Below are positions 14,906 through 29,956 of a stretch of DNA of 64,000 nucleotides, in pieces (the stretch's first letter is position 1; the number at the start of each line of letters is the position of its first letter). The translations under genes were made by a program, and so were the position numbers. The DNA comes from an uncultured Aquimarina sp. (GTDB lineage Bacteria > Bacteroidota > Bacteroidia > Flavobacteriales > Flavobacteriaceae). Location of the stretch: NCBI GenBank assembly GCA_947498765.1, contig CANMLG010000007.1:19547-83546 (forward strand), given 5' to 3'. The notes below the pieces were generated by a model, which was not told where the DNA came from, did not search any database, and saw only the letters and a list, made by a program, of their open reading frames with translations.

Positions 14906-16963
14906 ATGAAGTTAAATTATATTTTAAATAGTACGTTAATTTTAGGTTTTTCAGGTGTTTCCCTTGCTCAAGGAACAAACATTACTATTGATTTAGGTAT
15001 AAAAAAATATATAGGTAAGGAAAGTAAATTAGATCGTTCTAAGTTTTTTGGAATTCAATCTGCAGCAACATCTAATGAGTTTAAAGATGAGAGTGCCTAT
15101 TTATTTTCGGAATTAAATACATACCCGTCTCGAGGCTTTGATGGTCCTCAGCCTTATGGAGACTTAGAAGATTTATCTACAGGAAAAATTAGTACTCAAA
15201 TTAAAGTGTCAAGTTCGGATTACAAGGGCACATCTATTTTTAAAGCCTATGGAAAAAGTAATTATGTAATTACACAAAAGCCATCTAAGGTATATAAAAT
15301 AGGAGCCGATCCGCAACTAGCTGTAGATAAAATTAGCACTTATATGAAAAGTGCTTTTCCTGAAAATGCAACAAATTATTTGGATTTAATGGATGAAGCT
15401 TTTGCTAATACTTCATTGTTTTCTGATGATACGGATGCCACAAAAAAAGAAATTAGTAAGTATTACGCCGAAATTGCTAAAGGATTAAAAAAGAAATTCC
15501 CAAAATTAAAAGTTGGAGGATATAGTTCCATAAGACCTCATTTTGAATTGAACGATTTTAAATATTGGGAAAACAACCATAAATTATTTATGGATATTGC
15601 TGGAGAGCAAATGGATTTTTTGTCTTTGAAGCTTTATGATCAGGTTGATAGGGATACCTCAACAATTAATTACTGTGCAGGGAGTGATTCCGAGGCTACT
15701 TTAGATCTTATTGAAACCTATAGTTTTAACAAATGGAATACGGTTAAACCAATACTAATTTCAGAGTATGGTTTAAAAGTTCCGTATTGGGAAGGAACCA
15801 CATATAGTTCGGACAGAGATGCTTTTATATTAGAATCACTAAATAAAATTGTAATGTCCTTATTGGATAAGCCAGATCGTATTGAAAAAGCAATACCCTA
15901 CATTTTAGGAAAGGCAGAAAAATTTTATAAAAATTCAGTAGCTAATCCAAAAGGAAATCCGCACCCATGGTCCATTAGTCATAAAACTGAAGATGGGAAA
16001 TCATACGAATATAGTAACTTAATCAAATTTTATGAATTTTGGAAAGATGTTGAAGGTGTACGTACATATATAGCATCAGATAATCCAGATATTCAAGTAA
16101 ATGCTTTTTATAATAAAGGCAAATGGATGTTGATTTTCAATAACCTTTCTGATGAATCTGAGCTATTGAACTTTAATTTTTCAGAATTTGATGCCGAAAG
16201 AATTACAAAATATACTTTACGAAGGTTATTTTTAAATGAATCTGGTTTGCCAGAGTTAACCGAGGCATTTACAGACATACATATTGATCAATGGGATATT
16301 GATCCAAATGAAACCTTAATGCTTATTTGTGATGTTCCAGAGGATATTGAATTTGCTACTTCAATAGTAGAATACAACAATTATTCAAAACAATTATTAA
16401 AACCAATAGTAGCCGATAAACCGATTGAATTTGAATTTATTAATGTGAAAACAGGAAAAGGTAAAGCAAATATACGTGTATCTTTTGGTAAAAAAATTAA
16501 TTCGGACTTACAGCCAATAGTAAAAATTAACGATAATATTGTCTTAACACCAAAAAACTGGGCAGGATATGATCAATCAAATAGAGAGACATTTTTTGGA
16601 ATGTTGTCTATCCCGATTCCAATGTCTTATTTAAAAGATACTAACGAAGTTGAGGTAACTTTTGCTGATACAGGTGGTAAAGTAAGTTCGGTAGTAATTA
16701 ACACAGAGTTATTTTCTACTGATGTAGAAAATAAAAATTACCAAGCACCAAATGCGTTAGTATATTCAAGTCATGGAGGGAATTTATTACATATTTCAAA
16801 TAAAATAAAATGTAAAAGTCCTAAAATAACAGATTTAAAAGGAAATACCGTAAAAAAGTTAAAAGCTTATAAAAATGGAGAAACGGTTGATATTTCGACA
16901 TTAAAAGTTGGTCAATATATTTTAGAAACAACTACGGACGGAAAACTTAAATTTAAAAAATAG
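14906..16963 (+). CDS. GH86-like (beta-porphyranase/agarase family) secreted protein with divergent active-site motifs and T9SS-type C-terminus
   Basis: Collinear by eye with the Bacteroides plebeius porphyranase as I recall it (SKLDRSKFF, GSDSEATLDLIETYS, KPILISEYG, SDNPDIQVNAF, NWAGYDQSNRETFFGM). The C-terminus DISTLKVGQYIL resembles a type A T9SS CTD. Confidence 0.75.
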   Translation: MKLNYILNSTLILGFSGVSLAQGTNITIDLGIKKYIGKESKLDRSKFFGIQSAATSNEFKDESAYLFSELNTYPSRGFDGPQPYGDLEDLSTGKISTQIKVSSSDYKGTSIFKAYGKSNYVITQKPSKVYKIGADPQLAVDKISTYMKSAFPENATNYLDLMDEAFANTSLFSDDTDATKKEISKYYAEIAKGLKKKFPKLKVGGYSSIRPHFELNDFKYWENNHKLFMDIAGEQMDFLSLKLYDQVDRDTSTINYCAGSDSEATLDLIETYSFNKWNTVKPILISEYGLKVPYWEGTTYSSDRDAFILESLNKIVMSLLDKPDRIEKAIPYILGKAEKFYKNSVANPKGNPHPWSISHKTEDGKSYEYSNLIKFYEFWKDVEGVRTYIASDNPDIQVNAFYNKGKWMLIFNNLSDESELLNFNFSEFDAERITKYTLRRLFLNESGLPELTEAFTDIHIDQWDIDPNETLMLICDVPEDIEFATSIVEYNNYSKQLLKPIVADKPIEFEFINVKTGKGKANIRVSFGKKINSDLQPIVKINDNIVLTPKNWAGYDQSNRETFFGMLSIPIPMSYLKDTNEVEVTFADTGGKVSSVVINTELFSTDVENKNYQAPNALVYSSHGGNLLHISNKIKCKSPKITDLKGNTVKKLKAYKNGETVDISTLKVGQYILETTTDGKLKFKK

Positions 16964-16964
16964 C

Positions 16965-18029
16965 ATGTGTTTTAAAATAATAAAGGCTTCACTCACAATT
17001 TGTATTGTAGTGGGGCTTTTTTCATGTAATAAATTAAAAAAACCACAATCCAAGATTTCAAATAACGAGCAAATTACTGCAGTTTCATTTCATCAGAATT
17101 ATATGAATGAAATAGAAAAATTACCAATTAAGCTTGATACAATAGCTGGTAAAAATATGGTTTTGGTTTCGGGTGGAAGTTTTTTAATGGGAGGGACTAG
17201 TGAACAAGCTAGACCCGATGAATTGCCTGCACATAGGGAAACAGTTGCCGATTTTTACATTGATATTGCAGAGGTAACTAATGCTCAATTTAAGGCTTTT
17301 GTTGAAGCTACTGGTTATGTTACTACTGCAGAAAGGCCTATTAATGCCGATTTTATAGCAGCTATTTCTGGGGTGAATTCTAAAACCGTAGATATCGATC
17401 CAGCGGCATTAGTATTTAATGGAGATCCGCAAATGTGGTGGTCAATGGTTAAAGGAGCCAATTGGAAACATCCAAAAGGACCAAAGAGCAGTATTGAAGG
17501 GAAAGATGAATATCCTGTTGTTCAAGTATCATGGTACGATGCCATGGCTTATTGCCATTGGATTGGAAAACGTTTGCCTACCGAAGAAGAGTTTGAGTAT
17601 GTGGCTCGAAATAAAGGAAAGCAAATTAAATATAATTGGGGGGATGATTTTGAAAAAGCTGTGGAATATGTTAATTTTCATCAAGGAAGTTTTCCTTCAC
17701 AAAATTTAAAAGAGGACAATTTTGATGGGTTGGCACCCGTAAAAAGTTTTAAAAGTAATCCTTTGGGACTATATGATATTGGAGGTAATGTATGGGAGTG
17801 GACATTAAATTCGTATTTTTCTGATGGATATGCTCGAAAGTTAAATTTTGAAAAGCCTATATTAGCTAATGATCAGTCAATACATCAAAAAAAAGTAATC
17901 CGAGGAGGGTCTTTTTTATGTAATGAAAGTTATTGTTCTGGGTATCGTGTAGCAGCTCGAATGAACTCTTCTCCAGATACTGGTTTGGAGCATTTAGGTT
18001 TTAGATGTGTAAAGGATGTGGCTAATTAG
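16965..18029 (+). CDS. Formylglycine-generating enzyme (FGE/SUMF1) family lipoprotein
   Basis: Lipobox LFSC; EVTNAQF, PVVQVSWYDAMAYC, RLPTEEEFE, GNVWEW and RGGSFLCNESYC..YRVAAR with both catalytic Cys. Confidence 0.88.
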   Translation: MCFKIIKASLTICIVVGLFSCNKLKKPQSKISNNEQITAVSFHQNYMNEIEKLPIKLDTIAGKNMVLVSGGSFLMGGTSEQARPDELPAHRETVADFYIDIAEVTNAQFKAFVEATGYVTTAERPINADFIAAISGVNSKTVDIDPAALVFNGDPQMWWSMVKGANWKHPKGPKSSIEGKDEYPVVQVSWYDAMAYCHWIGKRLPTEEEFEYVARNKGKQIKYNWGDDFEKAVEYVNFHQGSFPSQNLKEDNFDGLAPVKSFKSNPLGLYDIGGNVWEWTLNSYFSDGYARKLNFEKPILANDQSIHQKKVIRGGSFLCNESYCSGYRVAARMNSSPDTGLEHLGFRCVKDVAN

Positions 18030-18135: not shown

Positions 18136-18543
18136 ATGAAAAAGTTACTAGTAATTTTAAGTTTTGTTTTTTTAGGAAGTATCCAAGTTTATTCTCAGGC
18201 ATTTATAAAGTTTGCAGAGGAACCACCTATGCAGTTAAAACCAGCTCGCGATTTTTTTAATTATAAAATTGAATATAAAGCCTTAAAAAAGAGTACTATT
18301 TATTTGGAGTTAAAAAAAGGAGATTCTTTAGTAGGGAATAGTGTATATGATGTAACTAAACCCGATCAAAAAATAGTTTCGGTTAATTTGCGTGTATTTG
18401 AAAATATTGATCGTTTAGACTCGGGAGAGGATTATTCATATAATTTATATATGTATGAAGGTGGCCGAAATGATTGGTCAAAACGTGCTTGTGAAACTCA
18501 AAAAATAAATGGGGTTCAAGTGGTAGTCGCTAACGAAAAGTAA
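18136..18543 (+). CDS. Small secreted beta-rich hypothetical protein
   Basis: Signal peptide (MKKLLVIL...VYSQ); alternating hydrophobic beta pattern. Confidence 0.7.
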   Translation: MKKLLVILSFVFLGSIQVYSQAFIKFAEEPPMQLKPARDFFNYKIEYKALKKSTIYLELKKGDSLVGNSVYDVTKPDQKIVSVNLRVFENIDRLDSGEDYSYNLYMYEGGRNDWSKRACETQKINGVQVVVANEK

Positions 18544-19618
18544 CAGGTCGAACTAAATATAGGTAAACAGGAAAATGATCACTGTATCCTCCAGTATAAA
18601 TTCCCCTACTAAATGTTCGTAAAGGATAACCTTTGTAGTTGCCCTTAGCATGCATCAAAAACTTTGGATTATAAATATGTGTTTCATGCAACCTAAAGCC
18701 TATCGTATCCAATAGAGTATTAGAAACTATTAGTTGATCAAACAAATTCCATTTATCGCGATAAGCAAGACTTCCAATCCCTTTGTTATACATTTTTTCC
18801 ATGGGATTGTACCAATAAGAATTTGTTTGTTGAGTTATTGAGGCTTTAGTTTTTAATATTTTTTTAAAGCTTTTGTCATTAGGATCGTCATTAAAATCGC
18901 CCATAATAATAACAGGAGCTTTTGGGGTTAAATACATTATAGAGTCAGTTATTTTTTTACATAATTTTGCAGCTTCGATTCTTTTAGCTTCACTTCGTTG
19001 TTTCCCACCTCTTCTAGAAGGCCAATGATTTATTATAAGATATAATAATTCACCTCCTAAATAACCCGAAACGCATAATTGGTCTCTGGTGTAAATTGGG
19101 TTGTTATATTCATCGTGTAAAGCTAAGGGGTGTTTTTGAATGTTTTTTATTGTAAAAAAATTTCTGTCATAAAGTAAAGCAACATCTATGCCTCTTCGAT
19201 CGGGTGAGTTATAATGTGCAATTCCATAATCATTTTTTTGTAAAAGAGGATGACTTACAAGTTGTTCAAGTATATTTTTATTTTCAACTTCAGCAACTCC
19301 CAGAAGTGCAGGCGGGTGTTGTGTTTTTTTTGTGCCTATACTCGAAATAACTTCTGCTAAATGATCAAGTTTAGTATTTAATTTTTCTTCAGTCCATCTG
19401 TTTTTTCCTTTAGGGGTATAATCTTCATCAAAAGTTAGGGGATCATCAATACAATCAAATAAGTTTTCAAGATTATAAAAAGCAATAGTGGTTATGTTGT
19501 GTTTTTGACTATAAATTGATGAGCAAATACTCAAAAAAAAGAGCAGTACACTAAAAAAATGATAAGGCATAAATAATTGTTTAACAGCAAAATAATAAAT
19601 AATGTATTTTAAATTCAT
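18530..19618 (-). CDS. Endonuclease/exonuclease/phosphatase-family secreted nuclease
   Basis: FYNLENLFD, GVAEVEN, NHWPSRRGG, IMGDFNDDP, FDQ and GYSDHFPV motifs. Confidence 0.9.
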   Translation of the reverse strand: MNLKYIIYYFAVKQLFMPYHFFSVLLFFLSICSSIYSQKHNITTIAFYNLENLFDCIDDPLTFDEDYTPKGKNRWTEEKLNTKLDHLAEVISSIGTKKTQHPPALLGVAEVENKNILEQLVSHPLLQKNDYGIAHYNSPDRRGIDVALLYDRNFFTIKNIQKHPLALHDEYNNPIYTRDQLCVSGYLGGELLYLIINHWPSRRGGKQRSEAKRIEAAKLCKKITDSIMYLTPKAPVIIMGDFNDDPNDKSFKKILKTKASITQQTNSYWYNPMEKMYNKGIGSLAYRDKWNLFDQLIVSNTLLDTIGFRLHETHIYNPKFLMHAKGNYKGYPLRTFSRGIYTGGYSDHFPVYLYLVRPVTFR

Positions 19619-19638
19619 AAAAAGTAACCAACTTTTAT

Positions 19639-22431
19639 ATGACTAAATTTAATTACTGCATTTTTTTTATTTTGCAAAGTGTCTCTTTTTTTGCTCAAAA
19701 TCAACAGGTACTAGGTAAAATTATAGCGGGCATAACAGAAGAGCCAATTTTTGAAGCTAAAATAGTATTAGAAGGAACTGATTTTAGTGCATTAACCAAT
19801 AGGTTAGGCAAATTCAATCTGTCAGACGAATTACCGGTAGGCGAGCAAATTTTAAGTATTCAAAAAAAAGGCTTTTTGTTAATAAGAATACCAATAGTTA
19901 TTAATTCTGGCCAACCAATAGACTTAGGTGTACTAAGATTACAAACTGATTTTGTAAATAATCAACAAGCGTTTGCAAGTGTTGATTTGAATGAAATTCA
20001 ATTGGATTCAGATCAAGATGCTATTCAAAATCAACACTTATTGCAAGCTTCTCGAGATGCATTTTTAAATAGTGTGGCCTTTAATTGGAGTGCTACTTTT
20101 TTTAAATTAAGAGGGCTGGGTAATGAACACACTAAAGTATTAATAAACGGTATCGAAGTGAATAGCCTGTATAACAGTAGACCAAATTGGAATAATTGGT
20201 CAGGGTTAAATGATATACTGCGATCACAAGAAAATTCTATCTACACGAATTCAAATTCGTATAGTTTTGGAAGCTTATTAGGCGTAACCCATTTTAAGTT
20301 AAATGCATCAAGTTTTGCAAATGGGAAAAAGATAGCCTTGGCAAGTACCAATAGATCATATCAGGGCAGGCTTATGGGTACTTATCATTCAGGTGAATTG
20401 TCCAATGGATGGTCTTTTAGTATGTCAGCTTCGATTAGAAAAGCTGAAGAAGGATATGCCAATGGTACTAACTTATCAGCATTTAGTTTGTTTGGAAGTG
20501 TTCAAAAAAGAATTAACGAAAAGCATAGTGTCAGTATTACAGGCATATACACTCCAGTAATCCGAGGAAAATCTTCGCCAAATACAGATGAGGTTGTTGC
20601 TATTAGAGGAATACGCTATAATTCGTATTGGGGGATTCAAAATGGTAAATTCCGAAATTCAAGAGAAAAAAGGGTTCAAGAGCCAATAGTTACCTTATCC
20701 CATTTTTGGAAGCCAACTAAAAAATGGAATATTCAAAATAATATCCTTTTTAAAAAAGGAGAAGTAGGGAATAGTAGATTGGATTTTATTGGTAAAACGG
20801 TAAATGAAGCCAATGGGCAATCCTTTTTTGAAGGAGGGGGGCGTAATCCAGATCCAACGTATTATCAAATACTTCCTAGCTATTTTCTAAGAAATCCTCA
20901 GAATGAGAACTTTGAAGCTGCTTTTTTGGCAGATCGTAACTTTAGGGCAAACGGACAATTAGATTGGCAATTTTTACACGATTCAAATCGTACTACTTTA
21001 GGCAATGCAGTTTATGTATTGTATGAAGATCGCAATGATGAATTATTTATGGCAGCAAATAGCATACTGGATTATAATTTGTCAGAAAAAATAAGTCTTC
21101 AAGGGAAAGTAGCATTTAGAGGATTACAGAGTCAAAACTTTGCATCACTTACAGATCTACTTGATGGTAGGGGGTATTTAGATATTGATGGTTTTGCAGA
21201 AGGAAATATAGCTCAAAGTGATTTGAGAAACCCAAATAGAATCGTGAGAGAAGGAGATGCGTTTAAGTATAACTATGAGCTTACAGCATTTGATGCTAAT
21301 GGGTTTATGCAATTGAATTATACCTATAATAAGTGGAATATTAACGCAGCTATTTCAGCCAAAGCGCAACGGTATCAACGTAATGGAAAGTTTGAAAATG
21401 GAATGTATCCTGGAGCATTATCTTTGGGAAAAAGCAAAGAGTTAAAATTTTTAGGTTATGGTTTAAAGTTAGGGTTGCAAAGGCAGATTACTCCTAAATG
21501 GTATACAAGTGCTTCGCTATTAATGGAAAGTAAGCCGCCATTATTACAACATTCATTTACAAATCCACGACAAAATAATGCAACGGTAATTGGTTTAAGC
21601 AATGAAAAATTAACATCAAGTGACCTGAGTATTTTTTATCAATATGGAGCAATTAAAACCCGTTTTTCTGCTTATTGGGTACAGCAACAAAATGTAACAA
21701 ATCGTTCTTTCTTTTTTACAGATAATTTGGCTGGCTTAGGGCGTGTTGATAATGCAGGCTTTTTTCAAGAAATTATGACAGGAATTAACAAACAAAATGC
21801 AGGTATAGAATTTGGAGCAGAAGTAGGACTTACAAGCACACTCACTTTAAATGCATCTGCAGCATACGGAAAGCATATTTATAGCAATAATCCCAATTTA
21901 TATATCACAGCTAATACTATTGAAGCTCCTTTAGATATTGGTAAAACTTTTTTAAAAAATTACCATTTACCAACTGGGCCACAACAAGCATATGGATTGG
22001 GCTTTAGTTACCGAGATCCAACATATTGGTGGTTGAGTACACAATTAAATTATTTCTCCCATTCTTTTAGTAGTATTAGTCCATTTACGCGGACCCAAAA
22101 TTTTTCTACTGATGTCGATGGTCAACCGTTTACAGATTTTGATGAAACAAAAGCAAGAAAATTATTAAAGCAAGAACAATTTCCAGCTTATTTTTTATGG
22201 AATGTCATCGGAGGAAAATCTTGGAAAATAAAAAAAAACTATTTGGGATTTGTACTAGGAATTCAAAACATTTTAAACAATGTATTTAAAACTGGAGGGT
22301 TTGAACAATCCAGAAATTCAAATTATGCTACTTTAAAAGAAGATCAAAACAGAGTAAATCCTTTATTTGGATCTAAACATTGGTACGGTAGCGGGACTAC
22401 ATTTTATATAAATACGTATTATCGATTTTAA
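19639..22431 (+). CDS. TonB-dependent receptor with N-terminal carboxypeptidase-regulatory-like domain
   Basis: Plug motif FFKLRGLGNEHTKVLINGIEVN, long beta-barrel pattern and C-terminal YINTYYRF. Confidence 0.85.
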   Translation: MTKFNYCIFFILQSVSFFAQNQQVLGKIIAGITEEPIFEAKIVLEGTDFSALTNRLGKFNLSDELPVGEQILSIQKKGFLLIRIPIVINSGQPIDLGVLRLQTDFVNNQQAFASVDLNEIQLDSDQDAIQNQHLLQASRDAFLNSVAFNWSATFFKLRGLGNEHTKVLINGIEVNSLYNSRPNWNNWSGLNDILRSQENSIYTNSNSYSFGSLLGVTHFKLNASSFANGKKIALASTNRSYQGRLMGTYHSGELSNGWSFSMSASIRKAEEGYANGTNLSAFSLFGSVQKRINEKHSVSITGIYTPVIRGKSSPNTDEVVAIRGIRYNSYWGIQNGKFRNSREKRVQEPIVTLSHFWKPTKKWNIQNNILFKKGEVGNSRLDFIGKTVNEANGQSFFEGGGRNPDPTYYQILPSYFLRNPQNENFEAAFLADRNFRANGQLDWQFLHDSNRTTLGNAVYVLYEDRNDELFMAANSILDYNLSEKISLQGKVAFRGLQSQNFASLTDLLDGRGYLDIDGFAEGNIAQSDLRNPNRIVREGDAFKYNYELTAFDANGFMQLNYTYNKWNINAAISAKAQRYQRNGKFENGMYPGALSLGKSKELKFLGYGLKLGLQRQITPKWYTSASLLMESKPPLLQHSFTNPRQNNATVIGLSNEKLTSSDLSIFYQYGAIKTRFSAYWVQQQNVTNRSFFFTDNLAGLGRVDNAGFFQEIMTGINKQNAGIEFGAEVGLTSTLTLNASAAYGKHIYSNNPNLYITANTIEAPLDIGKTFLKNYHLPTGPQQAYGLGFSYRDPTYWWLSTQLNYFSHSFSSISPFTRTQNFSTDVDGQPFTDFDETKARKLLKQEQFPAYFLWNVIGGKSWKIKKNYLGFVLGIQNILNNVFKTGGFEQSRNSNYATLKEDQNRVNPLFGSKHWYGSGTTFYINTYYRF

Positions 22432-22441
22432 TATTAATATA

Positions 22442-23821
22442 ATGAAAATAGAAATCATCAAACCATTTATAGTATTTGCGTTGTTTTTTAATTGTTTGGG
22501 GTGCAGTGATGATTTTGAGGTTCCTGCAGCAAAAAGTATCGAAATCCCTAAGGGGAATATGGTAAGTATAGCCTCGGCAAAAGTAGGATTAGATCGTATG
22601 CTAGATAATACAACAACATTTACAACTGATCAGTTGATGGAGGCTTATGTAGTATCCACTGATCGAGGAGGTAATTTTTTTAAAGAATTAATTTTGCAAG
22701 ATAAACCCAAAAATCCAACAGCAGGCATTCATTTTTTATTAGATGAGCGTAGTTTGCATAATCGTTTTCCTTTTGGGAGCAAAATAATAATTCAGTTAAA
22801 TGGGTTAAGCGTTGGTTTTGGAAATGGAGTTGCTAAATTAGGTAAGCTTTTAGAAAATGATATTGTAGCGCTAAGTGCATTTGAAATAGATAAGCACGTA
22901 TTTCGTGCTAACGAGATAGTTTCTATTGAACCTTTGGAGCTTAGTTTAAGCGAACTTACCCAAGAAAAAGAATCCTTGTTAATTAATTTAGCGAATATGC
23001 AGTTTGCAAGTAGTCTTTTAACGGATTCTGGAAAAACCTTGGCAGGTGCATCCGCAGATAATTTTGATGGCTTACGACCTATTTTTAATTGTGATGAAGG
23101 GATCGAAATAATATTATGCACCAGTAATTTTTCTAGTTTTAGAAGTTTACTCTTGCCTGATGGATCAGGTGAAATAACAGGAGTGCTTAGTCGAGATTTT
23201 AGAGATGATTTTTTTGTATTGAAAATGAATACGGCAAATGATTTAAAATTTAATCAAGCTACGCGGTGCGATCCCGTTTTTTTTGAATGTAATAATACAA
23301 GCGATGAGGCGAATGAAGTTTTATTTTCGGAAGATTTTGAAACTATTACTAATGAAAATTTGTTAGAAGCTTTGGGTTGGATAAATATAAATACCACTGG
23401 TGATGAAAAAAGATGGACGGATAAAAAAATAACAAATGTTGCTAACAGAGTGATGACAATTTCGGCATTTAATACAAATTTAAGGCCATTAGAGGCGTGG
23501 TTGATAACTCCCGAAGTGGATTTGACTACTATTGAAGATGCTTTTTTTCAATGTAGAATTCGTACTCAGTTTAATAATGGGAAAATTTTAAATATTTGGA
23601 TCACAACTAATTTTACAGGCGATCCAAAAACTACTTCTTGGCAATTATTGCCGTTAAATATACCTACACTTAGTTCAAATTATAAGTTGTTAAAACAAAA
23701 TATTTCTTGTTTTTCGGAAAAAGTTCGAATTGGTTTTCAATATAAAGGTTTTGATCCTTTAGCTACTTCTACTTATCAAATTGACGACGTTCAATTTTAT
23801 GGAAATGTTAAAATACCGTAA
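22442..23821 (+). CDS. DUF5689-type surface lipoprotein with C-terminal beta-sandwich
   Basis: Lipobox LGC; EAYVVSTDRGGNFFKELILQD OB-fold-like motif; WLITP and YQIDDVQF jelly-roll end. Confidence 0.7.
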   Translation: MKIEIIKPFIVFALFFNCLGCSDDFEVPAAKSIEIPKGNMVSIASAKVGLDRMLDNTTTFTTDQLMEAYVVSTDRGGNFFKELILQDKPKNPTAGIHFLLDERSLHNRFPFGSKIIIQLNGLSVGFGNGVAKLGKLLENDIVALSAFEIDKHVFRANEIVSIEPLELSLSELTQEKESLLINLANMQFASSLLTDSGKTLAGASADNFDGLRPIFNCDEGIEIILCTSNFSSFRSLLLPDGSGEITGVLSRDFRDDFFVLKMNTANDLKFNQATRCDPVFFECNNTSDEANEVLFSEDFETITNENLLEALGWININTTGDEKRWTDKKITNVANRVMTISAFNTNLRPLEAWLITPEVDLTTIEDAFFQCRIRTQFNNGKILNIWITTNFTGDPKTTSWQLLPLNIPTLSSNYKLLKQNISCFSEKVRIGFQYKGFDPLATSTYQIDDVQFYGNVKIP

Positions 23822-24084: not shown

Positions 24085-27000
24085 ATGAATTTAAAACTAT
24101 TTTCATTATTAACAGTCTTAGGACTGAGCGGCTCTGTGTTTTCTCAGGTTGAAGTTGATATAAACTTCGATATGAAGCACACAATTGGCGGTAAAGAGAC
24201 TTTTGACAGAGACAAGTTTATTGTTTTACATGCCGATGCTACTGAGAACGATTATAACGATGAGCTTGGCAAGTTGGATTCTTTAATAAACTTGTATGAT
24301 GCCTACTATGGTCGAGAGACAGGTCGTATGCGTTTTACTGCCGATCAAGTCCGAGAAAATACAAATAGACCAGGTTTTGCAGATCCGGCAAGTATTGCAG
24401 AATGGGGAACTATTTTGAATGATGCCTATGCTAACAGAACATCAAAACATCCTTTTGAAAAAGGAACAACTATAACAGCAGCTCAGGATGCACCGTTTTT
24501 CCCAAATGGGAATCATGCCACAGGTCAGGGCTGGTTTTTTTCACAAAATAATACTCCCGATGAGCCTTTTGGATCAGCAACAGGACAATATATGGGATTA
24601 TTTATGCGTGATCTTTATGCAGAAGGAGGAACAACAGGAGCTCCAAAACCTGAATATGTTGAGGTGATTAATGAGCCTTTTTTCCCTTTAGTTGACTTTG
24701 CAGCTGCAGGAGAAGCATCAAATGCTACGGATATTTTTGAAATGCATAAAACAGTAGCGGATTCAGTTAGAAAATATTCACCCGATAGTAAAATTGGAGG
24801 GTTTACAAATGCTTTTCCAGATTTAGAAGCTGAAGGTTTTGAAGCACAAAATAAAGTACCTTTTGGTCAATGGGAAGAGCGTTGGAGGCGTTTTATTGAC
24901 GAGGTAGGTCCAAAAATGGATTTCTATTCGATTCACTTGTACGACTTTCATAGTATTGGCGGAAAAGAACAATTACGAAAAGGTAGTAATATGGAAGCTA
25001 CCATGGATATGATTGAGCATTATAATACGCTTCAATATGGAGAAGTTAAGCCATGGGTAATTTCAGAATATGGAGGGCAACTAAATGATTTTTATGCTCA
25101 GCCATGGTCACCTGCTAGAGACTGGTTGATTTTAAAATCATTCTCATCAATGATGATGCAATTTATGGAGCGTCCCGATGTAATCCAAAAAACAGTGCCT
25201 TTTGCATTAGGTAAAGCCGAATTTTTATTTGGAGAACAAGCAGAAGGTTTTGCATACCCTTGGCGTATGATGCGTAAAAAGGATGAACCAGCGTCAAGAA
25301 ATAGTGATGAATATGTATTTACTGATGTAGTTAAATTTTATCAGTTATGGAGTGATGTCAAAGGTACACGAGTAGATACTAAATCTACTGATGTAGATAT
25401 ATTAGTAGATGCTTATGTTAATACACCTGAAAATAAAGCTTATTTGATTTTAAATAGTTTAGCAGAAACTAATTTAAGAGCAAATTTAAATGAATTTGGA
25501 TTGGGTAATAGTACCGTTACCAACGTTAAGATTAAACATTTGTATTTGGGTAATGATAACACACCTAAATTAGATATTACCGAAAGTAATACTGTACCAG
25601 ATTCTGTTGTTATTAATGAAGAAGGAACAGTAATTGTAGAATATACTTTTGATAATTCAGTAGCTATTACAGAAACATCTAGTGAAAGTAAAATATATGC
25701 AACAACATATAAGCAAGCAATTACAGCTGATCAAGCCATAACATTTACAATTCCTAATCTTAGTATTGGTGCTCAAGGAGAGGCAATTTTAAGATTGGGT
25801 GTAGGTAGAGCTAGTGAAGCAAATAGAATACCATCAATAACGGTAAATGGAAGTACTGTTACTGTGCCAACAGATTACCGTGGTGATATTCAAACAGACC
25901 GTGATTCCTTTTTTGGAATATTAGAAATTCCTGTTCCTTATGCTAATTTGATTGCTGGAAATAATGAAGTTACGGTAACTTATAATGATGATGGAGGTTT
26001 TGTGAGTAGTTTGGCATTACAAACATTTGATTTTTCACGTCAGGTAGACAGAACGCTAGCAGGCGATAGAGAACGAAGCTTAACGTTCGATAATATAACA
26101 GAATTTATTCCATTAGAAGGTACACTTCCTGAAGTAACGATTAGCCAAGATGTAAATTTGAATTTATCGTATGCTACAGGAATTACAAATGGTATCGAAG
26201 AAGATTTAGGGTATATCGCCGCTCAAATACGTCAGGTTGATGAGCTAGGAAATGAAGTAGCAACTAGTGAGTTTATAACACTAGCACCAGATGAGTCTGA
26301 TAATGCAGGTGTTGCAGAAAATTTTAGCTATAAAATCCCTACAAATTTTGCTACTCCTAATACAGATTTAATTCCAATAACTGCAGACTTACCTGAAGGA
26401 CATAAGTTATTCTTACTACTTTTTATGTCTGTTGATGGCGATACAGGTTTTGTAAATGCGAATACTGAAATTATAATTAACGAAGTGCCAGATCGAGCGC
26501 GTAGCTTAAGTTTTGATAATATTGCAGAATTTATTCCAGCAGGAGGTACTTTACCAGCTGTTGCTTACGGACAAGAAGTGTCATTGCAATTAACATATGC
26601 GACAGGTTTAACCGATAGAGTTGAAGAAGATTTATTTTATGTAGCCACTCAAATACGTCAGGTTGATGAATTTGGAAATGAAGTCGCTACAAGTGAATTT
26701 ACTACTGTTTTGCCAGATGAGTCTCCAAATAGTGGTACAGTAAACTTTACGTATACTATACCAACCGAATTTGCAACACCTACTACAGATCAAATTCCAA
26801 CTACAGCGGATTTGCCAGAGGGACATAGTTTAGTATTACTATTGTTTATGTCAACAGAAAATAATACGCTTTTTGCTAATGCGAATACAGCCATTGTGCT
26901 AAACGCTACGGCAGAAAGAACTAGAAATATTACATTTAATAATATTTCTGATTATATACTTTCTGGATCAAGTATTCCAACTTTTGAACAAGGACAAATA

Positions 27001-29307
27001 GCTCCCACTACTTTAACATATAGTACAGGAGTTACAAATGGTATTGAAGAAGATTTAGAATATTTAGCAATGCAAATACGCCAGTTTGATGAAAATTTTG
27101 AAGTAGTAAACACAAGTGCATTTCAAGCGGTAGTTGAGGCAGATGCTGAGAATGCAAATACGGTATCTTTTGATTATACAGTACCAACAACTTTTGAAGA
27201 CGGTACAACAATTCCATTATCATCAGAATTACCTGCGGGACATAAGTTGTTTTTATTAACATTTATGTCTGTAGATGGCGATACAGGTTTTGCTGATGCG
27301 AATACTGAAATTGAAATTATTGAACCGATTAGAAGAAGGAAAGTTACTTTTGATAATATTTCAGATTACATAGTATCAGGTGCCAGTATACCAACTTTTG
27401 AAAATGGACAAACATTTGGAACAACCTTAAGTTATAGTACAGGATTAAATGATGACGATACCGAGGAAGATTTGGTATATATAGCAATGCAAGTACGTCA
27501 GTTTGATGAAAATTTTGGAGTAGTAAATACAAGTACATTTCAGGCGGTAGTTAATGATGATGACCCAAATACCGGAATCGTTGATTTAGACTATACGTTA
27601 CCAACAGCTTTTGATAATGGTGACGTTATTCCGTTATCAAATGAACTACCAGAAGGCCATAAATTATTCTTATTAATTTTTATGTCTGTAGATGGCGATA
27701 CAGGTTTTGCTGATGCGAATACTGAAATTGAAATTATATTAGCAAATAGAGCTAGAGAAATTAGCTTTGATAATGTTGCAGACTATGTTTCTGAAGAAAC
27801 AGGTTTACCTACTTTCGACTTTGGACAAACATTTTCAACAACTTTAAGTTACACAACAGGAATTTTTGATAATGCCACTATTGAAGATTTGGATTTTGTA
27901 GCTATGCAGTTACGCCAGCTAGATCAAGCAGGAGGAGTAGTAAATATTAGTACATTTGAGGCAGTTGCTAACACTGATGCGCCAAATATTGATACGATTA
28001 CATTTGATTATGCATTACCTGTTGCTTATGATAATGGAGATCCAGTTTTAGATTCAGAAAATTTACCAGATGGACACAAATTAGAATTATTAATTTTTAT
28101 GTCTGTTGATGGTCAAACTGGTTTTGCAAACGCAGATGGAGAAATATTTATAAATGAACCAGCTGTTACGCAAGAAAGAGGCGTAGTTTTTGATAATTTA
28201 ACGGACTACATCCCAGAGGGAGAAACTTTGCCAGCATTTATTGAGGGAGATACATTTTCAGTATCATTAACATACAATACAGCGGTGTATCCAAATAGAG
28301 TTGAAGAATTATCAAGTTTAAGTCTTGAATTACGTCAAGTAGATCAAGAAAATGGTATTGTAAACACCATAAATGTAGGAGGGAATCTTGCTGTTGAACA
28401 AGCAGGAGCTCCAAATACAAGCACAGTAACAGTTGATTTTAGTTTGCCAACAACTTATAATAATGGAGATCCTGTATTATTTACAGAAGCATTACCCGAT
28501 GGACACCGACTTGTTTTAGCGGCAAAACTTGGTGTAGACGATGATGCAGCATTTACTGAAGTACTGGAAGAAATTGTTATAGAAGAATTGCTTGAAGATA
28601 GAAATGCTTTTATTACTTGGAACAATAAGGATGAATTTATTTCATTTAAAAGACATTTCCCTGTGTTTAATTTTAGAGAAACAATTGACTTAGATTTAAG
28701 TTACGCAACTCCAATTATAAACAATACTGAAGAAAGAATAGAATCAGTAAGAGTTCGTATAGTACAGGTAAATAGAAAAGGGAAAGTGATTAGAAGAACA
28801 AAAACAACTAAGTTGTTGTTGGATAATTCGCCTAATGCAGCGACTAACATTAAAGTGGCTTATGAGCTTCCAAATCAATTTAATAATGGTCGTTTAATTC
28901 CTAATTTAAAAAGGTTGCCAAGAGGGCATAGATTACGTTTGGTAATTGTTTTAAGAACTAAAGAATCTGAGCGTAGAGTTGCTAGAACTCGATCTGTAAT
29001 TGGATTTAAAGGCTTCAATTTCTATTTTTATAAGTATGGAAATTCTTTTGGAGCTAAAAATTTAGAATCAACAGCTAATGAAGTAAGTTTATATCCAAAT
29101 CCAGCTAATGAAGAAGTTATTGTTGATGCTACAGATAACTATACCACGGCAAGTATTTATAATTTAAATGGTTCGGTAATTGAAACAATAAATTTAGATA
29201 CCGAAACAAACTTTAATGTAACTCAATTGAGCGATGGAGTATATATTGTCAAGCTTTTTGGAGCTGATAATGTAATACAAACTCAAAAAATTGTAGTGAA
29301 GCATTAA
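24085..29307 (+). CDS. 1740-aa GH86-like porphyranase/agarase with 7 tandem ~140-aa repeats and T9SS CTD
   Basis: Intact clan GH-A motifs VINEPF, SIHLYD and VISEYGG; repeats at aa 661-1641; CTD YPNPA...LSDGVYIVK...QKIVVK. Confidence 0.85.
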   Translation: MNLKLFSLLTVLGLSGSVFSQVEVDINFDMKHTIGGKETFDRDKFIVLHADATENDYNDELGKLDSLINLYDAYYGRETGRMRFTADQVRENTNRPGFADPASIAEWGTILNDAYANRTSKHPFEKGTTITAAQDAPFFPNGNHATGQGWFFSQNNTPDEPFGSATGQYMGLFMRDLYAEGGTTGAPKPEYVEVINEPFFPLVDFAAAGEASNATDIFEMHKTVADSVRKYSPDSKIGGFTNAFPDLEAEGFEAQNKVPFGQWEERWRRFIDEVGPKMDFYSIHLYDFHSIGGKEQLRKGSNMEATMDMIEHYNTLQYGEVKPWVISEYGGQLNDFYAQPWSPARDWLILKSFSSMMMQFMERPDVIQKTVPFALGKAEFLFGEQAEGFAYPWRMMRKKDEPASRNSDEYVFTDVVKFYQLWSDVKGTRVDTKSTDVDILVDAYVNTPENKAYLILNSLAETNLRANLNEFGLGNSTVTNVKIKHLYLGNDNTPKLDITESNTVPDSVVINEEGTVIVEYTFDNSVAITETSSESKIYATTYKQAITADQAITFTIPNLSIGAQGEAILRLGVGRASEANRIPSITVNGSTVTVPTDYRGDIQTDRDSFFGILEIPVPYANLIAGNNEVTVTYNDDGGFVSSLALQTFDFSRQVDRTLAGDRERSLTFDNITEFIPLEGTLPEVTISQDVNLNLSYATGITNGIEEDLGYIAAQIRQVDELGNEVATSEFITLAPDESDNAGVAENFSYKIPTNFATPNTDLIPITADLPEGHKLFLLLFMSVDGDTGFVNANTEIIINEVPDRARSLSFDNIAEFIPAGGTLPAVAYGQEVSLQLTYATGLTDRVEEDLFYVATQIRQVDEFGNEVATSEFTTVLPDESPNSGTVNFTYTIPTEFATPTTDQIPTTADLPEGHSLVLLLFMSTENNTLFANANTAIVLNATAERTRNITFNNISDYILSGSSIPTFEQGQIAPTTLTYSTGVTNGIEEDLEYLAMQIRQFDENFEVVNTSAFQAVVEADAENANTVSFDYTVPTTFEDGTTIPLSSELPAGHKLFLLTFMSVDGDTGFADANTEIEIIEPIRRRKVTFDNISDYIVSGASIPTFENGQTFGTTLSYSTGLNDDDTEEDLVYIAMQVRQFDENFGVVNTSTFQAVVNDDDPNTGIVDLDYTLPTAFDNGDVIPLSNELPEGHKLFLLIFMSVDGDTGFADANTEIEIILANRAREISFDNVADYVSEETGLPTFDFGQTFSTTLSYTTGIFDNATIEDLDFVAMQLRQLDQAGGVVNISTFEAVANTDAPNIDTITFDYALPVAYDNGDPVLDSENLPDGHKLELLIFMSVDGQTGFANADGEIFINEPAVTQERGVVFDNLTDYIPEGETLPAFIEGDTFSVSLTYNTAVYPNRVEELSSLSLELRQVDQENGIVNTINVGGNLAVEQAGAPNTSTVTVDFSLPTTYNNGDPVLFTEALPDGHRLVLAAKLGVDDDAAFTEVLEEIVIEELLEDRNAFITWNNKDEFISFKRHFPVFNFRETIDLDLSYATPIINNTEERIESVRVRIVQVNRKGKVIRRTKTTKLLLDNSPNAATNIKVAYELPNQFNNGRLIPNLKRLPRGHRLRLVIVLRTKESERRVARTRSVIGFKGFNFYFYKYGNSFGAKNLESTANEVSLYPNPANEEVIVDATDNYTTASIYNLNGSVIETINLDTETNFNVTQLSDGVYIVKLFGADNVIQTQKIVVKH
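26065..29007 (+). repeat. Seven tandem intragenic domain repeats (~417-429 bp unit)
   Basis: Each unit follows the pattern R.i.FDN....LP....L.Y.T...EE.L..i..QiRQ.D....V.TS...Y.lP......LPeGHkL.L..fmsvdg......EI.I. Confidence 0.92.
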
Positions 29308-29344: not shown

Positions 29345-29379
29345 TAAAAGAGGCTGTCTGTAAAAAGACAGCTTTTTTT
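29345..29379. terminator. Bidirectional intrinsic terminator between convergent genes
   Basis: Stem gctgtct (29353-29359) / agacagc (29366-29372), with an A-run before and a T-run after. Confidence 0.75.
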
Positions 29380-29956
29380 ATAATAAATCAATAATTTTTA
29401 ATGGATCATCTTTTTCATTAGTAATATCTATAGTTGGCGAAACGGGAAATTCATCTGTTCCTAAACATTCTTTTGAAAAGAAATTAAAAGAAAACATCAA
29501 AGTATTAGCATCATCGTTATTGAGTAAAAATTCGATATCAGATTTTTTTATAACTATTTCGGCATAGTTTGGACTACTTTCAAACCCCCATAAATTTCCG
29601 TGTGTACTGCTATTTAATATCCATTCCCAGCCTCCATTTTTATCAGTGTTATTATTTTCCAAAACTTCCCCTGTAATTTTTACGGCATCTATTTCAGGAA
29701 TATCTAATTTTTGAAGTTTAATAGTTATATCACAAACGGTTACGTGTTCATCCAAAATTTCAATTATTGGATCATTTTCATTAAATACATCGGTTTCAGT
29801 TTCTTCATTTTTATAAGATTCATTTTTATTTTTTGTACTAAAAATAGGTTTAAAAACGAAATTTTCAGTTGTATTTTCATCTTCCAAAGGGGAATTACAT
29901 GAAGAAGATATGATGCTGCCAAAACTGACTATTAAAAAAAGAATTTGCAATTTCAT
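29378..29956 (-). CDS. Hypothetical lipoprotein
   Basis: Lipoprotein signal (…IISSSC); acidic mature region; no family recognised. Confidence 0.65.
   Translation of the reverse strand: MKLQILFLIVSFGSIISSSCNSPLEDENTTENFVFKPIFSTKNKNESYKNEETETDVFNENDPIIEILDEHVTVCDITIKLQKLDIPEIDAVKITGEVLENNNTDKNGGWEWILNSSTHGNLWGFESSPNYAEIVIKKSDIEFLLNNDDANTLMFSFNFFSKECLGTDEFPVSPTIDITNEKDDPLKIIDLL

What the first reader, a model, noticed from the sequence alone, without database searches (positions are those of the whole stretch)
24085..29307. Giant GH86-like enzyme carrying seven tandem copies of an unrecognised ~140-aa domain
Seen: an intact catalytic module (aa ~1-660), 7 repeats (26065-29007) with a conserved QiRQ.D / LPeGHkL signature, then a T9SS CTD. 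I do not recognise the repeat as a named CBM or Pfam family. Inference: a new carbohydrate-binding or spacer domain projecting the enzyme from the cell surface.
Basis: partly seen in the sequence, partly recalled or inferred. Interest (0 to 1): 0.65.

Follow-up and report, generated by a model that had tools for sequence, protein, structure and literature searches.

The report
Agarase with seven agarose-binding modules
A marine Aquimarina bacterium encodes a 1,740-residue secreted agar-degrading enzyme with seven tandem copies of a rare domain that is not new: it belongs to an agarose-binding module family whose structure was solved in 2024, so this is an unusually large but ordinary multi-module agarase.

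Summary
ORF 24085-29307 (+) encodes 1,740 aa: signal peptide, an intact GH86 module with both catalytic Glu (about 50% identical by eye to the Bacteroides uniformis agarase BuGH86), seven tandem 138-143-aa repeats (nt 26074-29025), and a T9SS type A C-terminal domain.

The claim that the repeat is unrecognised holds only for Pfam and NCBIfam, which have no model. A profile of the repeats hits PDB 8WAC at E=4.5e-11. 8WAC is titled [quoted passage not shown] (Wenyingzhuangia fucanilytica, released 2024). AlphaFold models of repeats 1 and 7 have 8WAC as their only significant structural match (TM up to 0.86, rmsd 1.8 Å). This is probably CAZy family CBM101, but I could not confirm the number.

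The domain is rare: 41 of 1.84 billion representative proteins and 7 of 401 Flavobacteriaceae genomes. Where a catalytic module was identified it is nearly always GH86 or GH16 agarase-type. This genome has 14 copies in 7 secreted proteins. Relatives carry 8 copies, so 7 is not the record.

All repeats are positionally orthologous and under purifying selection.

One feature is unexplained: the last repeat is strongly basic (net +16, against -15 to -22 for the others), and this is conserved.

Verdict: a new member of a known kind, of modest interest.

The parts
24085..29307 (+). Whole gene: 1,740-aa secreted multi-modular GH86 beta-agarase-like enzyme
24085..24144 (+). Signal peptide (aa 1-20, MNLKLFSLLTVLGLSGSVFS|Q)
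   Evidence: Read from the sequence. Homology to the mature BuGH86 chain starts at aa 18. The cleavage site is inferred.
24145..25395 (+). GH86 catalytic (beta/alpha)8 module (aa ~21-437). Acid/base Glu197 lies in EVINEP (nt 24673-24675) and nucleophile Glu328 in ISEYGG (nt 25066-25068).
   Evidence: 5TA1 E 1.4e-173. Glu328 aligns with the E->Q site of the 5TA0 variant.
25396..25716 (+). GH86 beta-sandwich domain 1 (Porphyrn_cat_1, aa 438-544)
   Evidence: E 5.5e-25
25741..26025 (+). GH86 C-terminal beta-sandwich (BPA_C, aa 553-647)
   Evidence: E 6.8e-27
26074..26499 (+). Repeat 1 (aa 664-805), 8WAC-type CBM, long form, net charge -19
   Evidence: AF2 model pLDDT 76; Foldseek 8WAC E 9.5e-7.
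26500..26922 (+). Repeat 2 (aa 806-946), net charge -15
   Evidence: (BLASTP vs 8WAC 2e-10)
26923..27336 (+). Repeat 3 (aa 947-1084), the closest to 8WAC
   Evidence: BLASTP 29% identity, E 4e-13; phmmer of the whole protein against PDB 1.2e-8
27337..27753 (+). Repeat 4 (aa 1085-1223), 70% identical to repeat 3
27754..28176 (+). Repeat 5 (aa 1224-1364)
28177..28605 (+). Repeat 6 (aa 1365-1507)
28606..29025 (+). Repeat 7 (aa 1508-1647): same fold but charge-reversed (pI 11.25, net +16). It forms a distinct clade with the last repeat of the 8-copy relatives.
   Evidence: AF2 pLDDT 91.8; Foldseek 8WAC TM 0.74/0.86, rmsd 1.8 Å.
29089..29298 (+). T9SS type A C-terminal sorting domain (aa 1669-1738)
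   Evidence: PF18962 E 8.8e-11; TIGR04183 46.6 bits against cutoff 23
29353..29372 (.). G+C-rich palindromic hairpin between the convergent gene ends; likely a bidirectional terminator
   Evidence: 1 found, 0 expected in shuffles

Best explanation
The gene encodes a secreted endo-beta-agarase-type GH86 enzyme of an Aquimarina species. Its catalytic module is followed by seven tandem copies of a beta-sandwich carbohydrate-binding module. That module belongs to the family typified by the agarose-binding CBM of a Wenyingzhuangia fucanilytica agarase (PDB 8WAC; probably CAZy family CBM101). The copies here are a 'long form': the 8WAC core of about 117 aa plus three short insertions.

Shown: homology in sequence and fold; near-exclusive association of the domain with agarase-type catalytic modules; antiquity of each copy and purifying selection on it.

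Inferred: each copy binds agarose or agar chains weakly, and seven in series give avidity for the insoluble, gel-like agar of red-algal walls, holding the enzyme (and the cell, if it stays attached) on the substrate. The T9SS sorting domain is at the C-terminus. If the protein is anchored after export, the array also acts as a stalk of roughly 25-30 nm with the catalytic module at the far end. The anchor-proximal repeat 7 has the same fold but a reversed (basic) surface charge. Its role is not established. It may bind anionic partners such as sulfated agar or porphyran, or the anionic cell surface.
For: The repeat profile against all PDB sequences gives a single hit, 8WAC_A, at E 4.5e-11. Single repeats by BLASTP are 25-29% identical to it, with E from 4e-13 to 2e-3. 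The alignment runs end to end, from ITWNN/TFDNI to FANxNTxI.

AF2 models of R1 (pLDDT 76) and R7 (pLDDT 91.8) each have 8WAC as the only Foldseek hit at E<=1e-3. The PDB title is 'novel agarose-binding carbohydrate binding module of an agarase'. Scores are E 9.5e-7 and 6.5e-7, TM 0.67/0.78 and 0.74/0.86, and rmsd 1.8 Å for R7. The 8WAC construct is listed as 'Agarase, Wenyingzhuangia fucanilytica'. A review table lists CBM101 as beta-sandwich, agarose (PMC11122601).

Association with agarases: this genome has 14 copies in 7 proteins, namely 2 GH86, 4 GH16 beta-agarase-like (best PDB hits AgaA at E 7e-34 and AgaD at E 3e-148), and one unknown N-terminus with RicinB. All end in a T9SS CTD. Elsewhere the carriers whose catalytic module was identified are almost all GH86 or GH16. 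A metagenomic GH86 fragment has a short-form module 46% identical to 8WAC in the same slot, GH86-module-CTD.

Catalytic module: about 50% identical by eye to the agarase BuGH86 (E 1.4e-173), against E 3.6e-58 for the porphyranase BpGH86A. Both catalytic Glu are present.

Constraint: per-repeat dN/dS is 0.05-0.27 among four Aquimarina orthologues, and the repeats are positionally orthologous in the tree.
Against: No binding data exist for the long form. Identity to 8WAC is only 25-29%, with three insertions. The repeats R1-R6 contain no Trp, whereas 8WAC has two. One of those aligns to Phe in TFDN and the other to a non-aromatic loop position. I could not obtain the 8WAC paper, so I could not check whether the ligand-contacting residues are conserved. 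The CAZy family number (CBM101) rests on a review table plus the PDB title, not on a direct statement. T9SS type A substrates are anchored in some species and released in others, so the stalk role is conjecture. The gene is not in a SusC/SusD agar PUL; its neighbours are a TonB receptor, a DUF5689 protein and a nuclease block.
Confidence: 0.75

Rival explanations
1. The repeats are chiefly a passive spacer or stalk. They would be beta-sandwich beads that have lost ligand binding and merely hold the catalytic module away from the outer membrane.
For: There are seven to eight head-to-tail copies with almost no linkers. The array sits between the catalytic module and the T9SS CTD. There is no Trp in R1-R6, and the repeats are only 25-29% identical to the characterised binder. 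The weaker Foldseek hits are Ig-like or arrestin-like sandwiches.
Against: The domain also occurs as one or two copies on GH16 and GH86 enzymes, where a spacer role makes little sense. It is nearly always attached to agarase-type modules. The signature residues Y33, T35, E43, Q54 and LPxGH are invariant across 44 copies, which is more than a spacer would need. dN/dS is 0.05-0.27.
Confidence: 0.1
2. The long-form repeats bind a different red-algal galactan (porphyran, or sulfated agar/agaropectin) rather than neutral agarose. Alternatively the array combines specificities, with the basic repeat 7 dedicated to sulfated chains.
For: The long form differs from 8WAC by three insertions. R7 carries net +16, with 8 positions basic in all six terminal repeats examined. 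That would suit an anionic ligand. A GH86 paralogue next to a sulfatase-maturating enzyme lies 7 kb upstream. GH86 includes porphyranases (4AW7).
Against: R1-R6 are strongly acidic (net -15 to -22), which is unfavourable for sulfated ligands. The attached catalytic modules are closest to agarases (BuGH86, AgaA, AgaD), not porphyranases. The only characterised homologue is described as agarose-binding.
Confidence: 0.12
3. This is the first reader's reading: a wholly new domain family unrelated to any named CBM.
For: There is no Pfam-A or NCBIfam hit even at E<=10 for single repeats. The public annotation of the orthologues is only 'T9SS type A sorting domain-containing protein'.
Against: There are significant and mutually consistent sequence and structure matches to 8WAC.
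Confidence: 0.03

Closest known systems
Agarose-binding CBM of a Wenyingzhuangia fucanilytica agarase (PDB 8WAC, released 2024-09-11; probably the founding structure of CAZy family CBM101)
   Same: Homologous over the whole domain (profile E 4.5e-11). Same beta-sandwich fold (TM up to 0.86, rmsd 1.8 Å). Shared motifs: W/F-N-N near the start, xTYxxG, PN, LPxG, and FANxNTxI at the end. Appended to agarases of marine Flavobacteriaceae. A close short-form relative sits directly after a GH86 module and before a T9SS CTD, as here.
   Different: The copies here are about 140 aa against about 117 aa, through three insertions. They are 25-29% identical to 8WAC. They have LPxGH where 8WAC has LPSGN, and Q-x-R-Q-x-D where 8WAC has VLQEMN. 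R1-R6 have no Trp. There are seven tandem copies rather than a single characterised module. The last copy is charge-reversed. Binding is untested.
BuGH86 (Bacteroides uniformis NP1 GH86 beta-agarase; PDB 5TA0/5TA1/5TA5) and the GH86 beta-agarase of PDB 8H97
   Same: The catalytic (beta/alpha)8 module plus two beta-sandwich domains align over aa 18-654 (E 1.4e-173 and 2.5e-151). Both catalytic Glu are conserved.
   Different: BuGH86 is a 649-residue chain with no appended CBM array. The protein here adds 984 aa of CBM repeats and a T9SS sorting domain.
Multi-CBM agarases in general, e.g. GH16 agarases with three CBM6 modules (Pseudomonas vesicularis AgaA, PMC4394494, abstract seen)
   Same: The design principle is the same: an endo-agarase followed by tandem non-catalytic agar-binding modules that raise affinity for the insoluble substrate.
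   Different: The CBM family is different (8WAC type, not CBM6). The copy number is higher (7-8). The secretion route is T9SS.

Membership tests
8WAC-type agarose-binding CBM family (probably CAZy CBM101) | Significant sequence similarity to the characterised founding module | tested here: met
   Profile against PDB E 4.5e-11. Whole-protein phmmer 1.2e-8. BLASTP of R1-R7 against 8WAC: 7e-8, 2e-10, 4e-13, 3e-11, 5e-9, 2e-5 and 2e-3, at 25-29% identity.
8WAC-type agarose-binding CBM family (probably CAZy CBM101) | Same three-dimensional fold (beta-sandwich) | tested here: met
   Foldseek against PDB gives 8WAC as the only hit at E<=1e-3 for both models: R1 TM 0.67/0.78, and R7 TM 0.74/0.86 with rmsd 1.8 Å.
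8WAC-type agarose-binding CBM family (probably CAZy CBM101) | Occurs as a non-catalytic module within carbohydrate-active enzymes acting on the ligand | tested here: met
   Found on GH86 and GH16 beta-agarase-type enzymes in this genome and elsewhere.
8WAC-type agarose-binding CBM family (probably CAZy CBM101) | Demonstrated binding to agarose | not testable with these tools
   Needs protein biochemistry. Only the PDB title of the homologue asserts binding.
8WAC-type agarose-binding CBM family (probably CAZy CBM101) | Conservation of the ligand-contacting residues of the founding member | not tested
   The primary paper is not in the held library and no model coordinates are returned. Columns invariant between the long and short forms are N7, Y33 and L111.
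8WAC-type agarose-binding CBM family (probably CAZy CBM101) | That 8WAC is the CAZy family numbered CBM101 | tested here: inconclusive
   A review table lists CBM101 as beta-sandwich, agarose (PMC11122601), and the PDB title says 'novel agarose-binding CBM'. No document that I could read links the two explicitly.
Glycoside hydrolase family 86 | Homology of the catalytic module and both accessory beta-sandwiches to structurally characterised GH86 enzymes | tested here: met
   5TA1 E 1.4e-173, 8H97 2.5e-151, 4AW7 3.6e-58. PF18206 and PF18040 score above their cutoffs.
Glycoside hydrolase family 86 | Clan GH-A catalytic pair: acid/base Glu in an NEP motif, plus a nucleophile Glu | tested here: met
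   EVINEP gives Glu197. ISEYGG gives Glu328, aligned to the E->Q position that distinguishes 5TA0 from 5TA1.
Glycoside hydrolase family 86 | Substrate specificity (beta-agarase versus beta-porphyranase) | tested here: inconclusive
   Much closer to the agarases BuGH86 and 8H97 than to the porphyranase BpGH86A. Subsite residues were not analysed.
T9SS type A cargo | C-terminal sorting domain scoring above the curated threshold | tested here: met
   TIGR04183 46.6 bits (cutoff 23) and PF18962 42.4 bits (cutoff 27), at aa 1669-1739.
T9SS type A cargo | T9SS machinery present in the genome, and actual export or anchoring | not tested
   All six other carriers of the domain in this genome also end in the same CTD type. 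The machinery genes were not searched.

The most novel reading that the evidence does not exclude
The CTD-proximal repeat (R7 here, R8 in the 8-copy relatives) is a functionally diverged module. It has the same fold and the same signature residues, but a conserved basic surface: net +16 here and +1 to +12 in the five relatives, against the acidic charge of nearly every other copy of the family. It would have switched partner to an anionic polymer, either sulfated agar or porphyran in the algal wall, or the bacterium's own anionic surface lipopolysaccharide. That would make the array a polarised device, with a basic 'foot' next to the anchor and six acidic agarose-binding beads beyond it.
Probability: 0.25. 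Interest if true: 0.5.

Novelty: new member of a known kind. Interest (0 to 1): 0.3.

Why it matters
The practical value is in annotation. Orthologues in Aquimarina agarilytica and A. agarivorans are labelled only 'T9SS type A sorting domain-containing protein', and Pfam and NCBIfam have no model for 57% of the protein (984 of 1,740 aa). Assigning that stretch to the 8WAC agarose-binding CBM family explains it, and it also explains the unassigned middle regions of six further secreted enzymes in this genome.

The data set expands a very small family (about 40 clusters at 50% identity) with a 'long form'. It documents arrays of up to 8 copies and shows that the domain marks agar-active enzymes. 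That makes the unassigned N-terminal modules attached to it (contig 21 protein; P0044 beta-helix protein) candidates for new red-algal polysaccharide enzymes.

The tandem array and the charge-reversed last module are convenient material for testing avidity in CBM arrays, and for engineering agar-binding probes or tags.

Tried and rejected
1. Pfam-A and NCBIfam scans of the whole protein, and of each repeat at E<=10, gave nothing credible for aa 660-1650. The best hits were DUF7490 at E 0.11 and DUF3931 at E 0.15-0.21, which I rejected as noise.

2. Five literature searches for the paper behind 8WAC or CBM101 did not find the primary paper. A sixth found only a review table listing CBM101 as beta-sandwich, agarose, read. 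Another paper merely lists 8WAC as a low-homology benchmark target.

3. I tried to find the parent enzyme of 8WAC in the species-representative genomes. No relative was confirmed. Alignments A1 and A2 were too divergent for the pattern-based locus finder.

4. P0048, a 3,778-aa protein with 11 partial matches, is a HYR/DUF11 adhesin. The similarity covers only profile positions 13-74. I rejected it as a family member.

5. An assembly artefact or recent repeat expansion is rejected. The copies are 22-70% identical, are positionally orthologous across species, and recur in independent assemblies.

6. The idea that seven copies is the largest array is rejected, because P0005 and P0007 have eight.

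7. Earlier scan notes by sequence gave nothing relevant.
Full report
**1. Observation**

The window has one long ORF at 24085-29307 on the + strand, encoding 1,740 aa. Pfam recognises the two beta-sandwich domains specific to GH86 enzymes and a T9SS sorting domain:
- Porphyrn_cat_1 at aa 438-544
- BPA_C at aa 553-647
- Por_Secre_tail at aa 1669-1738; NCBIfam TIGR04183 agrees

Nothing in either library covers aa 660-1650.

Motif searches and a MAFFT alignment show seven head-to-tail repeats of 138-143 aa (aa 664-1647, nt 26074-29025). At DNA level only R3-R5 still register as a 417-bp tandem repeat.

**2. Catalytic module**

Residues 18-654 align to the Bacteroides uniformis GH86 agarase (5TA1) at E 1.4e-173, and to another GH86 beta-agarase (8H97) at 2.5e-151. 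The porphyranase BpGH86A (4AW7) scores only 3.6e-58.

The acid/base Glu lies in EVINEP (Glu197). The Glu of ISEYGG (Glu328) aligns with the single E->Q difference between the 5TA1 and 5TA0 chains, which marks it as a catalytic residue. The module is intact and agarase-like.

**3. What the repeat is**

Single repeats give no Pfam hit even at E<=10. A profile of the seven repeats searched against all PDB sequences gives exactly one hit: 8WAC chain A, a 127-residue 'Agarase' fragment, at E 4.5e-11. Evidence that this is real homology:
- The whole protein finds it by phmmer at 1.2e-8.
- Pairwise BLASTP of R1-R7 against it gives 25-29% identity, with E from 4e-13 (R3) to 2e-3 (R7).
- An AlphaFold2 model of R1 built on the 7-repeat alignment (pLDDT 76, pTM 0.72) has 8WAC as its only significant Foldseek hit in the PDB (E 9.5e-7, TM 0.67/0.78). 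The entry title is 'Crystal structure of a novel agarose-binding carbohydrate binding module of an agarase', released 2024-09-11.
- The representative-protein search returned the His-tagged 8WAC construct itself (P0050). UniRef names it 'Agarase, Wenyingzhuangia fucanilytica'.

Aligned together, the repeats and 8WAC match from the first strand (TFDNI / ITWNN) to the last (FANANTEI / FANDNTQI). The repeats are longer through three insertions of about 9, 4 and 10 residues.

A review table lists CAZy family CBM101 as 'beta-sandwich, agarose' and CBM99 as 'porphyran' (PMC11122601). So 8WAC is most probably the CBM101 structure. I could not find the primary paper in the held library, so the family number remains an inference.

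**4. Which proteins carry it**

An exhaustive HMMER search of 1.84 billion representative proteins finds only 41 at E<=1e-3, of which 30 are at E<=1e-30. Of 401 Flavobacteriaceae genomes sampled roughly one per genus, 7 have it, this one included. Named carriers are:
- Aquimarina agarilytica ZC1
- A. agarivorans HQM9
- four uncultured or MAG Aquimarina
- Algibacter amylolyticus
- a Bacteroidota MAG
- an Arenicella MAG

The window's own genome (3.84 Mb) holds 14 copies in 7 proteins:
- this GH86 (7 copies)
- a second GH86 on contig 40 (1 copy)
- a GH16 AgaA-like enzyme on contig 23 (2 copies)
- three GH16 AgaD-like enzymes on contigs 5 and 7 (1 copy each; the one searched gives AgaD E 3e-148, the other two are assigned by sequence similarity to it)
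- a contig 21 protein with an unassigned 600-aa N-terminus plus a RicinB lectin domain (1 copy)

Every one of them ends in a T9SS CTD. Other carriers in the databases are again GH86 or GH16, or have unassigned N-termini. One has a beta-helix region plus CBM6/35 modules. A metagenomic GH86 fragment (P0054) has a short-form module 46% identical to 8WAC directly after BPA_C and before the CTD, which is the same architectural slot as here. So the domain is nearly always attached to agarase-type catalytic modules.

**5. The array**

Copy numbers in the family run from 1 to 8. The three 1,737-1,740-aa Aquimarina orthologues have 7, and two 1,852-1,854-aa relatives (about 58% identical) have 8, so seven is not the maximum.

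A maximum-likelihood tree of 63 copies shows positional orthology: the R1s group together, the R2s together, and so on. The array therefore predates the divergence of these species, and the 8-copy form arose by an internal duplication in the R3/R4 group.

Per-repeat dN/dS among four orthologues is 0.05-0.27. For comparison it is 0.03 for the catalytic barrel and 0.21-0.35 for the linker plus CTD. Every copy is being maintained.

**6. The odd last repeat**

R1-R6 are strongly acidic (pI about 4, net -15 to -22), as is nearly every other copy in the family. R7 has pI 11.25 and net +16. The last repeat of the five related 7- or 8-copy proteins is also positive, from +1 to +12.

These terminal repeats form their own clade (support 99/98) on a long branch. 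They keep all nine residues that are invariant across 44 copies: Y33, T35, E43, Q54, P89 and L-P-x-G-H. Modelled with that alignment, R7 gives pLDDT 91.8, and 8WAC is again the only significant structural match (TM 0.74/0.86, rmsd 1.8 Å). Eight positions are Lys or Arg in all six terminal repeats examined.

The fold is conserved and the charge reversal is old and maintained. Its purpose is not established.

**7. Context**

The gene appears to stand alone. It has a 263-bp AT-rich upstream gap and a G+C-rich hairpin at 29353-29372 shared with the convergent downstream gene.

Upstream lie an EEP-family nuclease, a TonB-dependent receptor and a DUF5689 protein. The order receptor, DUF5689, GH86 is kept in three other Aquimarina genomes. 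A second GH86 (14906-16963), followed by a formylglycine-generating-enzyme homologue, lies 7 kb upstream. There is no SusC/SusD pair next to the gene.

**8. Mechanism**

Shown: this is a secreted GH86 agarase-type enzyme carrying seven homologues of a characterised agarose-binding module.

Inferred from what is established for CBM arrays in general: individual modules bind polysaccharide chains weakly, and tandem copies add avidity for insoluble or gelled substrate, keeping the enzyme on agar in red-algal walls.

Also inferred: the sorting domain is C-terminal. If the protein is attached to the cell surface after T9SS export, as type A cargo is in some Bacteroidota, the array also acts as a stalk of about 25-30 nm (seven beta-sandwiches of roughly 4 nm each), with the catalytic module outermost and the basic repeat next to the anionic surface.

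Rivals are a pure spacer function, or a shifted or mixed specificity towards sulfated galactans. None can be settled without binding assays.

**9. Verdict**

The claim of an unrecognised new domain is refuted by its own criterion. The finding is a new, unusually large member of a known kind: a multi-CBM agarase with an 8WAC-type (probably CBM101) module, here in a long-form subgroup. The remaining points of interest are the missing Pfam/NCBIfam coverage, the domain's value as a marker for agar-active enzymes, and the conserved charge-reversed terminal module.

Noticed in passing
window 28606-29025 (repeat 7); also the last repeat in L009, L010, L011, L012 and L014: The CTD-proximal repeat is charge-reversed (net +16 here, +1 to +12 in the five relatives), while nearly every other copy of the family is acidic. 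It forms its own clade, and eight positions are basic in all six terminal repeats examined.
   Followed up: partly
own genome G000, contig C21 (oriented open frame 99563-102490; domain copy at C21:656-1063, - strand): A 969-aa T9SS protein carries one copy of this CBM and a RicinB lectin domain behind an N-terminal region of about 600 aa. That region has no Pfam or PDB sequence match and its sequence looks like beta-helix repeats. P0044 elsewhere combines a Beta_helix region, this CBM and CBM6/35. These are candidate uncharacterised enzymes acting on red-algal polysaccharide.
   Followed up: partly
window 14906-18029: There is a second GH86 paralogue (685 aa, without the repeat), immediately followed by a formylglycine-generating-enzyme (sulfatase-maturating) homologue. 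This hints at sulfated-galactan (porphyran) metabolism nearby.
   Followed up: partly
window 18530-23821, and L009/L010/L011 upstream of the GH86: An EEP nuclease, a TonB-dependent receptor (non-SusC type) and a DUF5689 protein precede the GH86. The order receptor, DUF5689, GH86 is conserved in three other Aquimarina genomes. Whether they are functionally linked is unknown.
   Followed up: partly
P0008 / L017 (Arenicella MAG) and P0020: GH86 enzymes with five copies of the domain occur in a gammaproteobacterial MAG. They end not in a T9SS CTD but in a short Cys-containing tail (...CFPIKAKNGNILVICL / ...CFPIKTKTDRFMVLCI). This suggests lateral transfer with a swapped C-terminal sorting signal of unknown type.
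   Followed up: no
P0052, P0056, P0047, P0049 (representative-library hits): Short secreted proteins of 139-233 aa consist of little more than one module of this family, with or without a CTD. They may be stand-alone agar-binding proteins.
   Followed up: no
P0013 (GH16 + 4 copies): The precomputed Pfam list names PF27413, an accession newer than the local Pfam copy. It is absent from the other carriers, so it probably does not describe the repeat. I could not check what it covers.
   Followed up: no
window 29378-29956 (- strand): A 192-aa ORF convergent with the GH86 has no Pfam match. It is conserved (73% identity) only in the closest relative, L009.
   Followed up: no
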